From: a virus
Lineage: Duplodnaviria > Heunggongvirae > Uroviricota > Caudoviricetes
IMG/VR virus record: IMGVR_UViG_2703718816_000014
Coordinates: 1-3,475 of that record
Length of the DNA: 3,475 bases
Reading direction: 5' to 3' (one strand)
How positions within the stretch are numbered: position 1 is the stretch's first letter; each line of letters opens with the position of its first letter. This document shows, in pieces, positions 2,966 through 3,475 of the stretch. The translations under genes were made by a program, and so were the position numbers. The notes beneath the pieces were generated by a model. That model was not told the DNA's origin. It saw only the letters and a program-made list of their open reading frames with translations, and made no database searches.

Positions 2966-2981
2966 TGTTAATTACTCCATG

Positions 2982-3113
2982 TTAATTTATTTGTATGCCT
3001 GCTCTTTCTTCATCGAGTTTTTTTAGCTTGTATCGCATAGCTCTTACTGAATAAATGGAGCGGCAGGTTGCAATTGCTATTTCTTCTGCGGAGAACTTAC
3101 CGAAAAGTGATAC
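2982..3113 (-). pseudogene. Possible 3' remnant of a gene truncated by the IS insertion (43 codons open to the IS boundary: VSLFGKFSAEEIAIATCRSIYSVRAMRYKLKKLDEERAGIQIN*); helix-turn-helix-like segment
   Basis: Of the three minus-strand frames entering from the IS boundary at 3115, only this one is open; the other two stop within about 40 nt. It has no in-frame start codon, and its TAA stop (2984..2982) lies 17 nt upstream of the 93-aa gene with the GGAG of that gene in between, as expected for the preceding gene in the operon. SAEEIAIATCRSIYSVRAMRYK has helix-turn-helix-like spacing. Could instead be chance. Confidence 0.3.
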
Positions 3114-3115
3114 TT

Positions 3116-3142
3116 TGAACCGCCCCGATTTTCCTGGAGAGT
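3116..3142. repeat. Terminal inverted repeat of the IS3-family element (transposase-distal end, IRR); inner boundary approximate
   Basis: TGAACCGCCCCG... at the element tip, as I recall for IS629-like ends. The partner IR is outside the window, so the repeat length cannot be measured here. Confidence 0.55.
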
Positions 3143-3157
3143 GTTTTATCTGTGAAC

Positions 3158-3475
3158 TCAGGCTGCCAGATCATTGTTTCCGATGGAAGCATAATGAGCT
3201 TTTTCTGCTTCTGCCGGAGGAGTATGGCCCAGCCTTCCCAGCAATCGTCGATTGTTATACCAGTCCACCCACGTGAGTGTGGCCAGTTCCACTTCTGCAC
3301 GGTTTTTCCAGCTCTTACGGTGTATTACCTCCGCTTTGTAAAGACCATTGATACCCTCAGCCATCGCGTTGTCATACGAGTCGCCTGTGCTCCCTGTTGA
3401 TGCCAGTAATCCGGCTTCCTTAAGCCGCTGCGTGTAGGCCAGCGATACATACTGAGAGCCTTTATCGCTGTGATG
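3158..3475 (-). CDS. IS3-family transposase OrfB, C-terminal 105 codons (5' part of the gene is beyond the window)
   Basis: Minus-strand translation from 3475 gives HHSDKGSQYVSLAYTQRLKEAGLLASTGSTGDSYDNAMAEGINGLYKAEVIHRKSWKNRAEVELATLTWVDWYNNRRLLGRLGHTPPAEAEKAHYASIGNNDLAA*. This contains the IS3-family DDE-region hallmarks HSD(K/R)GSQY and DNA-x-x-E, plus the C-terminal WYNNRR...LG...P motif. The ORF-track entry 3158..3364 is the same frame begun at an internal Met. TGA stop at 3160..3158. Confidence 0.9.
   Translation of the reverse strand, partial: HHSDKGSQYVSLAYTQRLKEAGLLASTGSTGDSYDNAMAEGINGLYKAEVIHRKSWKNRAEVELATLTWVDWYNNRRLLGRLGHTPPAEAEKAHYASIGNNDLAA

What the first reader, a model, noticed from the sequence alone, without database searches (positions are those of the whole stretch)
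2966..3160. IS3-family element inserted about 150 bp upstream of the integrase-proximal gene chain, apparently truncating a gene and cutting the chain off from its native promoter
The IS end (TGAACCGCCCCG, 3116) abuts a minus-strand open frame (2982..3113) that has a stop but no start, and that stop sits at operon-like distance from the next gene. That is the expected footprint of an insertion into a coding sequence. All seven downstream genes (93, 55, 154, 27, 80, 44 aa, xis) share this strand and show no obvious internal promoter, so their expression now depends either on read-through from the IS or on a new promoter at the junction. IS3-family elements are known to carry outward-directed promoter elements in their terminal repeats. 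This may be a defective prophage whose accessory genes have been rewired.
Basis: partly seen in the sequence, partly recalled or inferred. Interest (0 to 1): 0.55.

Follow-up and report, generated by a model that had tools for sequence, protein, structure and literature searches.

The report
IS629-like insertion in prophage gene
A common E. coli jumping gene (an IS629-like insertion sequence) has recently landed inside a small, non-essential DNA-binding-type gene of a lambda-like prophage; this is an ordinary event, and whether it rewires the downstream genes cannot be decided because the source contig ends inside the insertion sequence.

Summary
Window 1..3115 is 100% identical to an uninterrupted prophage in E. 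coli OkiPb01678. Homology stops exactly after 3115, and 3116 is the terminal base of the right inverted repeat of an IS629/IS1203-type IS3-family element. Its transposase reads in the same direction as the phage genes.

The start-less frame 2982..3113 is the last 44 codons, the stop included, of a conserved 104-aa gene for a predicted tandem three-helix protein. That gene lies between the Gp157-like gene and DUF5405 in the leftward early (pL) operon. It is contiguous in 298 of 299 complete E. coli genomes that carry it.

In the intact relative, the native promoter is a lambda-type pL about 3.9 kb upstream, followed by a boxB-like hairpin and an N gene. N-modified polymerase is expected to read through an IS, so "cut off" is not shown. 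A weak outward promoter-like site (TTCACA-17-GAAAAT) lies in the IS end but is not statistically distinguishable from chance.

The source contig (GCA_001607765.1, LOIQ01000034.1) ends 361 bp inside the IS. The other IS end, the target duplication and the state of the rest of the prophage therefore could not be seen. This is an ordinary, recent IS insertion of low interest.

The parts
3116..3475 (-). Right-hand 360 bp of an IS629/IS1203-type IS3-family insertion sequence. The transposase strand is the minus strand, and the element is cut off by the end of the source contig.
   Evidence: 96.1% identical to IS629 of VT2-Sakai and 99.4% identical to a 1309-bp copy in E. coli D10. 6694 records match in complete E. 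coli genomes. The window is the reverse complement of L023 2..3476, at the contig end.
3116..3140 (-). Right terminal inverted repeat (IRR). The element ends ...GGTTCA-3' on the transposase strand.
   Evidence: It aligns with the annotated 25-bp IS629 right-end repeat. The full-length relative has 25-nt inverted repeats that are 84% complementary. Four independent copies share this terminus.
3158..3475 (-). C-terminal 105 codons plus the stop (3160..3158) of transposase OrfB.
   Evidence: Pfam rve_3 9.8e-11, rve_2 2.5e-06 and rve 1.4e-05. Called as a 105-aa rve gene fragment at the contig end in L023.
3128..3156 (-). Outward-facing sigma-70 promoter-like site inside the IS end: TTCACA (3156..3151), a 17-nt spacer, then GAAAAT (3133..3128). 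It is a candidate only.
   Evidence: It is not enriched over shuffles. The last T of the -10-like hexamer exists only in this IS variant; IS629 Sakai and IS1203 read GAAAAC.
2982..3115 (-). 3' remnant (second base of codon 61 through the stop) of a 104-aa gene for a predicted tandem three-helix protein. It is a pseudogene fragment without a start codon.
   Evidence: The intact allele is L001 5383..5697 (WP_000753554.1). PHROG 11492 4.5e-23 and PHROG 323 2.2e-20. Homologues at 49-89% identity occur in Salmonella, Citrobacter and Enterobacter.
2966..2981 (-). Native 16-nt intergenic spacer carrying the Shine-Dalgarno GGAG (2978..2975) of the DUF5405 gene.
   Evidence: Sequence. Identical in the uninterrupted loci.
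2684..2965 (-). First intact gene downstream of the IS: DUF5405 protein, 93 aa.
   Evidence: Pfam DUF5405 1.7e-05. PHROG 154 2.2e-31.
1..2687 (-). Rest of the co-oriented chain: DUF2737 (2520..2687), Ead/Ea22-like (2059..2523), a 27-aa hydrophobic ORF (1979..2062), DUF4222 (about 1732..1974), a 44-aa ORF (1594..1728), excisionase DUF1233 (1321..1575) and tyrosine integrase (1..1287).
   Evidence: All are 100% identical in DNA to the intact prophage of OkiPb01678.

Best explanation
An IS629/IS1203-type IS3-family element transposed recently into codon 61 of a 104-aa accessory gene. In an AlphaFold model that gene's product forms two three-helix bundles. The gene lies in the leftward early (pL) operon of a lambdoid prophage integrated beside yecE/yecN/cmoA in an E. 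coli draft genome.

Shown:
- The exact IS terminus is at 3116.
- The IS is co-oriented with the phage genes.
- The remnant 2982..3115 is the promoter-less, start-less 3' part of that gene.
- The downstream DNA is unchanged.

Inferred:
- The direct effect is a knockout of one non-essential gene.
- The remnant is not translated.
- The downstream genes keep their own ribosome-binding sites.
- After induction they would still be transcribed from pL, provided the upstream prophage is still there. N-modified RNA polymerase reads through IS elements, and the IS shows no intrinsic terminator.
- In the lysogen they could at most receive weak transcription leaking out of the IS, either transposase read-through or the weak internal TTCACA-17-GAAAAT site.
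For: - Breakpoint: (100% identity over 3115 bp, ending at 3115).
- IS identity and terminus.
- Orientation: the orfB stop is at 3160..3158 on the minus strand.
- Intact gene and its position between Sipho_Gp157 and DUF5405.
- The gene is real: PHROG hits, homologues across genera, and it is contiguous in 298 of 299 complete E. coli genomes that carry it.
- The junction is private: it is absent from 5,426 complete genomes and from the genome, viral and metagenome collections.
- pL operon context: cI, N, cIII, kil, RecT, Gp157 ... xis, int. A lambda-like pL (TTGACA-17-GATACT) and a boxB-like hairpin lie at L001 9485..9374.
- No terminator-like site is found in a full-length IS copy or on the minus strand of 2966..3160. 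The RNA fold of the junction is no more stable than shuffles (z = -0.02).
- IS629 is mostly found in prophages (62%) and makes 3-4 bp duplications (PMC3271280).
- The same gene carries a simple IS1A insertion, with both halves kept, in ST131 strain MB1159.
Against: - The other IS end is not available because the source contig ends 361 bp inside the IS. A simple insertion with a target duplication is therefore assumed, not shown.
- The N-terminal fusion products predicted for a simple insertion (70 or 77 aa) are absent from the 15-billion-protein collection. This is mild evidence that the upstream half may not abut the IS in this genome.
- In a related O157:H7 prophage, a co-oriented IS1203 in the same operon sits at a deletion border with no duplication.
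- No expression data exist.
- N read-through of the IS is taken from established lambda genetics and was not tested here.
Confidence: 0.8

Rival explanations
1. The IS uncouples the DUF5405-to-int chain from its native promoter. These genes are now driven by the IS, through transposase read-through or an outward or hybrid promoter at the right end, which gives repressor-independent expression in the lysogen.
For: The IS is co-oriented with the chain. No terminator-like site lies between the orfB stop and the DUF5405 start. TTCACA-17-GAAAAT (9 of 12 matches, optimal spacer) lies 8-40 nt inside the IS end and points outward. Outward promoters or -35 elements are documented in the right ends of IS3, IS2 and IS911 (PMC8860574, PMC9330008).
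Against: Promoter-like sites are not enriched in the window (2 found against 5.0 expected). No hybrid promoter spans the junction, even at relaxed thresholds. No paper found shows outward promoter activity for IS629. The native promoter is an N-antiterminated pL about 3.9 kb away in the intact relative. Transcription from it is expected to cross the IS, so 'cut off' is not implied.
Confidence: 0.12
2. The IS marks the border of an IS-mediated adjacent deletion or an IS-IS recombination. The upstream half of the gene, and perhaps much of the prophage including pL, N and the lytic genes, would then be gone or relocated, leaving a defective int-proximal remnant.
For: The predicted N-terminal fusion ORFs are not on record. 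Among 51 relatives of the protein, the only fragment ending at the RAE breakpoint (P0030) runs into unrelated phage DNA in another sample. There is a precedent in O157:H7 Z869: IS1203 in the same operon, with no target duplication and non-contiguous flanks. IS629 with the excision enhancer IEE is known to generate adjacent deletions (PMC9330008).
Against: Contig breaks at IS copies are the normal outcome of short-read assembly, so a missing partner contig or uncalled small ORF is weak evidence. The flank carries no mutation. The breakpoint sits exactly at the IS tip, as a primary insertion would leave it. The IS1A case in the same gene is a simple insertion.
Confidence: 0.25
3. The junction is an assembly artefact, a chimeric contig end joining prophage reads to an IS copy located elsewhere.
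For: The junction lies 361 bp from a contig end and is not seen in any other collection searched.
Against: The join is exactly at the terminal base of the IS inverted repeat. A real transposition produces that; a random chimera would not. The look-up lists this contig for 2 samples.
Confidence: 0.02

Closest known systems
IS629 (also called IS1203 / IS1203v; IS3 family, IS3 group) of Shigella sonnei and E. coli O157:H7
   Same: The terminal sequence TGAACCGCCCCG is the same, and the 25-bp right repeat is near-identical. Identity over the visible 360 bp is 96.1%. The OrfB C-terminus has an rve fold. It shows the same preference for prophage DNA.
   Different: It belongs to a sub-variant that is 99.4-99.7% identical to copies annotated only as 'IS3 family', mostly on E. 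coli plasmids. That variant's full-length copy is 95.3% identical to IS629 Sakai and 1309 rather than 1310 bp long. The right repeat reads CCCCGATTTTCC rather than CCCCGGTTTTCC. The left end, the frameshift site and the target duplication of this particular copy are not visible.
IS insertions in the early-left (pL) operon of lambdoid prophages, for example IS1203 in the O157:H7 Z869 prophage and IS1A in the ST131 MB1159 prophage
   Same: The operon is the same. In MB1159 the same gene is hit. In both cases the transposase is co-oriented with the phage genes.
   Different: The Z869 case is bordered by a deletion and MB1159 is a simple IS1 insertion. Which of the two applies to the window's case is unknown.
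Outward promoters of IS3-family elements (P3R of IS3; the -35 element in the IRR of IS911 and IS2, used for the circle-junction promoter and for hybrid promoters)
   Same: A promoter-like element lies in the right end and points out of the element.
   Different: Here it would be a complete internal promoter, not a -35 at the tip. It is weak, not significant against shuffles and not documented for IS629.
Phage HK140 gp39 (YP_007111742, annotated 'transcriptional regulator, D5-like'; 315-nt CDS)
   Same: This is the intact counterpart of the disrupted gene in a sequenced phage genome record. It is 99.1% identical in DNA over the retained part and has the same neighbours, DUF5405 and the Gp157-like protein.
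   Different: It is intact in HK140. Its function has not been tested. The annotation derives from PHROG 323, and Pfam gives only a sub-threshold HTH_12 hit.

Membership tests
IS3 family, IS629/IS1203 type | Element ends 5'-TG...CA-3' | tested here: met
   The visible end reads TG at 3116-3117 on the + strand, which is ...CA-3' on the transposase strand. The position coincides with the annotated IS629 terminus. The other end is off the contig.
IS3 family, IS629/IS1203 type | Imperfect terminal inverted repeats of about 25 bp | tested here: inconclusive
   The right repeat 3116..3140 is present and matches IS629 at 24 of 25 positions. A 99.4% identical full-length copy has 25-nt repeats that are 84% complementary. 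The left repeat of this copy is not in the window.
IS3 family, IS629/IS1203 type | DDE transposase with an rve (integrase core) domain | tested here: met
   The C-terminal 105 residues hit rve_3 (9.8e-11, above cut-off) and rve_2. The catalytic D, D and E residues lie mostly upstream of the window.
IS3 family, IS629/IS1203 type | orfA and orfB joined by a programmed -1 frameshift | not testable with these tools
   The region lies outside the window and contig. Relatives are annotated with a programmed frameshift and an AL1L pseudoknot.
IS3 family, IS629/IS1203 type | 3-4 bp target-site duplication | not testable with these tools
   The contig ends inside the IS. The candidate duplication is CTT or ACTT at 3112..3115. 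IS629 makes 3-4 bp duplications (PMC3271280), and the Sakai copy shows AAAG on both sides.
IS3 family, IS629/IS1203 type | At least 95% nucleotide identity to the reference IS. This is the ISfinder isoform convention, stated from my own knowledge. | tested here: met
   Identity is 96.1% over the visible 360 bp. The closest full-length relative is 95.3% identical to IS629 Sakai, which is borderline.
Lambdoid pL (early-left) operon | A co-oriented chain from N through the recombination genes to xis and int, downstream of a repressor-controlled pL | tested here: met
   Seen in relatives that are 100% identical over the window's phage part. pL-like hexamers with lambda-type operators lie at L001 9485..9457. 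In the window itself only the distal part is visible.
Lambdoid pL (early-left) operon | N/nut processive antitermination | tested here: inconclusive
   An N-peptide gene (PF25694) is present in relatives. A boxB-like hairpin GCGCTGACAAAGCGC lies between pL and N. Its identity with P22-type boxB is from memory. No functional test was made, and the upstream region of the source genome was not seen.

The most novel reading that the evidence does not exclude
This IS629 sub-variant may carry a complete outward promoter in its right end, TTCACA-17-GAAAAT. The invariant -10 T would be created by the single base that distinguishes it from canonical IS629 and IS1203. From this position it would drive repressor-independent transcription of DUF5405, DUF2737, Ea22 and on to xis and int in the lysogen. 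That could alter spontaneous excision or switch on accessory genes.
Probability: 0.08. Interest if true: 0.35.

Novelty: already known. Interest (0 to 1): 0.1.

Why it matters
It matters little beyond annotation. The region 2982..3115 should be annotated as a pseudogene remnant, and 3116 onward as an IS629-like element. The case also shows why the draft contig stops here.

If the insertion were shown to give constitutive xis/int or accessory-gene expression, it would be a small example of IS-driven rewiring of a prophage. IS insertions into prophages, IS polarity and IS-borne outward promoters are all well documented, so no open question depends on it.

One minor point: the same small gene has been hit by IS elements at least three independent times, which agrees with it being dispensable.

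Tried and rejected
- Finding the source and the other IS end. The exact 40-nt junction was searched in genome contigs, viral contigs and metagenome contigs with no hits. The junction region was searched in complete E. coli genomes and in phage records, and no record spans it.
- Look-ups of the two junction-spanning ORFs found nothing on record.
- The look-up with the integrase returned only intact prophages. The look-up with the Ea22-like protein found the source contig, but that contig ends inside the IS.
- The predicted N-terminal fusion proteins for a 3-bp and a 4-bp duplication are not in the collection.
- P0030 breaks after the same residue, but it is a phage mosaic junction in another sample and not the partner contig.
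- A lambda-type CII-dependent pI motif (TTGC-N6-TTGC) near xis/int was sought and nothing above chance was found.
- Rfam found no match in the window.
- The RNA structure of the junction is not different from shuffles.
- No repeats of note lie around the junction.
- Fold search of the 104-aa protein model found no significant PDB match. The best E-value was 0.066, and the top weak hits are bipartite helix-turn-helix domains.
- The literature search for the assembly accession found nothing.
- I considered a second homology search with Gp157 to reach the partner contig. I rejected it because the chance was low: the look-up reads only the 24 blocks with the longest contigs and collapses places with similar neighbours.

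Full report
**What is in the sequence.** The window carries a single minus-strand chain of genes:
- a tyrosine integrase (1..1287)
- a DUF1233 excisionase (1321..1575)
- a 44-aa ORF
- a DUF4222 protein
- a 27-aa hydrophobic ORF
- an Ead/Ea22-like protein
- a DUF2737 protein (2520..2687)
- a DUF5405 protein (2684..2965)

From 3116 rightward the sequence is an insertion sequence. The 105 codons ending at the stop 3160..3158 on the minus strand hit the integrase-core families rve_3, rve_2 and rve. The 360 bases match thousands of IS3-family copies in E. coli.

**Check of the IS end.**
- Aligned against two uninterrupted loci, the window is identical or near-identical up to base 3115 and unrelated from 3116.
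- Window 1..3115 is 100% identical to E. coli OkiPb01678, L001 2402..5516.
- In phage VT2-Sakai, the depositors annotated IS629 together with its 25-bp right inverted repeat. Window 3116 aligns with the outermost base of that repeat.
- Four independent copies in unrelated flanks all start TGAACCGCCCCG at that base.
- The visible part is 96.1% identical to IS629 Sakai. It is 99.4% identical to a 1309-bp copy in strain D10, which itself is 95.3% identical to IS629 and has 25-nt terminal repeats.

The element is therefore an IS629/IS1203-type member of the IS3 family. Position 3116 is its right end, and its transposase reads towards the phage genes.

**Check of the truncated gene.** The frame 2982..3113 translates to VSLFGK...GIQIN*. 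By my reading, the frame is open back to a TGA at 3173..3171. The ORF listing at min 20 aa reports nothing in it, and the only start-codon ORF I see is the 18-codon one from the internal Met.

In the intact allele (L001 5383..5697) the gene encodes 104 residues. The IS sits after the first base of codon 61. The gene lies between a Sipho_Gp157-family gene and DUF5405 in every intact relative examined.

It is a real gene:
- It hits PHROG 11492 (4.5e-23) and PHROG 323 'transcriptional regulator, D5-like' (2.2e-20).
- It has homologues at 49-89% identity in Salmonella, Citrobacter and Enterobacter.
- It is contiguous in 298 of the 299 complete E. coli genomes that carry it.

An AlphaFold model (mean pLDDT 79.9) shows two three-helix bundles, at residues 8-44 and 59-98, joined by a low-confidence linker. 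Relatives of 153 aa have a third repeat. Foldseek found no significant solved relative. The weak top hits are bipartite helix-turn-helix DNA-binding domains, and Pfam gives only a sub-threshold HTH_12 hit. 'Small tandem-HTH DNA-binding protein' is thus a reasonable but untested reading. The remnant lacks the first domain, the start of helix 1 of the second domain, a start codon and a ribosome-binding site, so it is a pseudogene fragment.

**Context.** Relatives that share the integrase show a lambdoid prophage beside yecE (DUF72), yecN and cmoA. Their leftward early operon runs in this order:
- cI and accessory genes
- N
- DUF2528, cIII and kil
- a 102-aa gene, RecT and Gp157
- the 104-aa gene
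- DUF5405, DUF2737, Ea22 and DUF4222
- a 44-aa gene, xis and int

In L001 the sequence upstream of N contains TTGACA-17-GATACT within lambda-type operator repeats (9485..9457) and a hairpin GCGCTGACAAAGCGC (9388..9374). From memory, I recognise these as lambda pL and a P22-type boxB. The native promoter of the chain is therefore about 3.9 kb beyond the insertion point, not just upstream of the disrupted gene.

**Where the window comes from.** No complete E. coli genome, phage record, GTDB representative, IMG/VR contig or JGI metagenome contig holds the junction. A look-up with the Ea22-like protein found the source: NCBI assembly GCA_001607765.1, contig LOIQ01000034.1 (755,757 bp). The window is the reverse complement of the last 3475 bases but one of that contig.

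The contig stops 361 bp inside the IS, as short-read assemblies do at repeats. The left IS end, the target duplication and the upstream prophage are therefore not recoverable here. The fusion ORFs expected for a simple insertion are absent from the 15-billion-protein collection:
- 70 aa, ending ...RAEVNRPGNPGD, for a 3-bp duplication
- 77 aa for a 4-bp duplication

This is mild evidence, not decisive, that the upstream half may not abut this IS.

**How it most likely works.** The structural event is shown: an IS insertion that knocks out one accessory gene. The flank has no substitution relative to an intact prophage over 3115 bp, and the junction is private, so the event is recent.

The consequences for the downstream genes are inferred:
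- Each gene keeps its own Shine-Dalgarno sequence (GGAG at 2978..2975 for DUF5405).
- No intrinsic terminator-like site is found in a full-length IS copy or between the orfB stop and DUF5405. The junction RNA has no unusual structure.
- By established lambda genetics, N-modified polymerase suppresses the polarity of IS insertions (Adhya, Gottesman and de Crombrugghe 1974, cited from my own knowledge). If the upstream prophage is intact, induction should therefore still express the chain.
- In the repressed lysogen pL is off regardless. The chain could then receive only weak transcription leaking from the IS.

The only candidate promoter on the relevant strand is TTCACA-17-GAAAAT (3156..3128), wholly inside the IS. 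Its final T depends on the base that distinguishes this variant from IS629 and IS1203. Promoter-like sites are not enriched in the window (2 found against 5.0 expected in shuffles). No hybrid promoter spans the junction, and I found no paper showing outward promoter activity for IS629. Such activity is documented for IS3, IS2 and IS911.

**Rivals.**
- An IS-mediated deletion or rearrangement beyond the IS is a serious alternative for what lies off the contig (about 0.25). In O157:H7 Z869, an IS1203 co-oriented in the same operon has no target duplication and non-contiguous flanks. IS629 with the excision enhancer is known to delete adjacent DNA.
- Against that alternative, the same gene carries a simple IS1A insertion in ST131 MB1159. 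A missing partner contig is also normal for draft assemblies.
- An assembly chimera is unlikely, because the join is exactly at the IS tip.

**Comparison with what is known, and verdict.** In O157:H7, 62% of IS629 copies lie in prophages or prophage-like elements, and the element makes 3-4 bp duplications (PMC3271280). This is one more such insertion, by a slightly divergent IS629 sub-variant, into a dispensable gene that other IS elements have also hit.

Novelty is 'already known', and interest is low.

Noticed in passing
L025 5461..5698 (GCA_025241605.1 JALGMZ010000072.1): A second, independent IS629/IS1203-type insertion in the same 104-aa gene. It sits after codon 46 in the opposite orientation, with the right repeat facing the gene's 5' half. 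That contig also ends inside the IS.
   Followed up: partly
L026 2501..3600 (E. coli ST131 MB1159, NZ_CP174273.1): An IS1A insertion in the same gene with both gene halves retained (N-terminal fragment annotated at 3431..3592). This is the only one of 299 complete genomes in which the gene is not contiguous. The gene has therefore been hit by IS elements at least three separate times.
   Followed up: partly
L004 4581..5890 (E. coli O157:H7 Z869, NZ_CP062782.1): A 1310-bp IS1203, co-oriented in the early-left operon of a related prophage. It has no target duplication (flanks GGG / CTG). Its flanks correspond to L001 positions that are kilobases apart, so this IS borders a deletion that removed the region from cIII and kil to the recombination genes.
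   Followed up: partly
L024 about 6285..6300 (Logan ERR5386512 contig 229): A phage mosaic breakpoint in the same gene lies 2-6 nt from the IS insertion point (...GAGCCGAA|ATATGGAACGCC...). It yields a 78-aa product, P0030, that also ends its homology at residue E61. Coincidence or a local recombination hotspot; not resolved.
   Followed up: no
window 3128 (IS position 13 from the right end): The IS sub-variant has A (+ strand) where IS629 Sakai and IS1203 have G. On the transposase strand this turns GAAAAC into GAAAAT, the -10-like hexamer of the only outward promoter-like site. The same base is present in the 99.4-99.7% identical copies L003 and L016.
   Followed up: partly
window 1979..2062 (-): A 27-aa strongly hydrophobic ORF ([27 protein letters not shown]) starts directly after the stop of the Ea22-like gene. 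It is not called in any public annotation seen. It may be a small membrane peptide or may be spurious.
   Followed up: no
window 2059..2523 (-) / L001 4592..4876: RefSeq flags the Ead/Ea22-like gene of the identical OkiPb01678 prophage as an incomplete pseudogene missing its C-terminus. Other records call an intact 154-aa ORF on the same sequence.
   Followed up: no
L001 9374..9490 (-): The intact relative combines lambda-type pL and OL operator sequences with a boxB hairpin that I recall as P22-type (GCGCTGACAAAGCGC). This would be a mosaic immunity/antitermination region. The annotated N CDS (8862..9347, 161 aa) is longer than the 127-aa call in other records.
   Followed up: no
window 1..20 / L001 2402..2418: The integrase stop region overlaps the 3' end of the host DUF72 (yecE) gene by 17 nt in L001. 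Called lengths of that gene vary from 254 to 271 aa among lysogens, which suggests the prophage integrates into its 3' end and supplies a replacement terminus.
   Followed up: no
A2 alignment (P0031, P0032, P0034, P0036, P0040): Relatives of the disrupted protein that are 151-153 aa long carry a third copy of the W-x2-x-E-[LIV] ... EIA-x-x-T-x-R-S/T helix-turn-helix-like repeat. The family thus exists in two-repeat and three-repeat forms.
   Followed up: no
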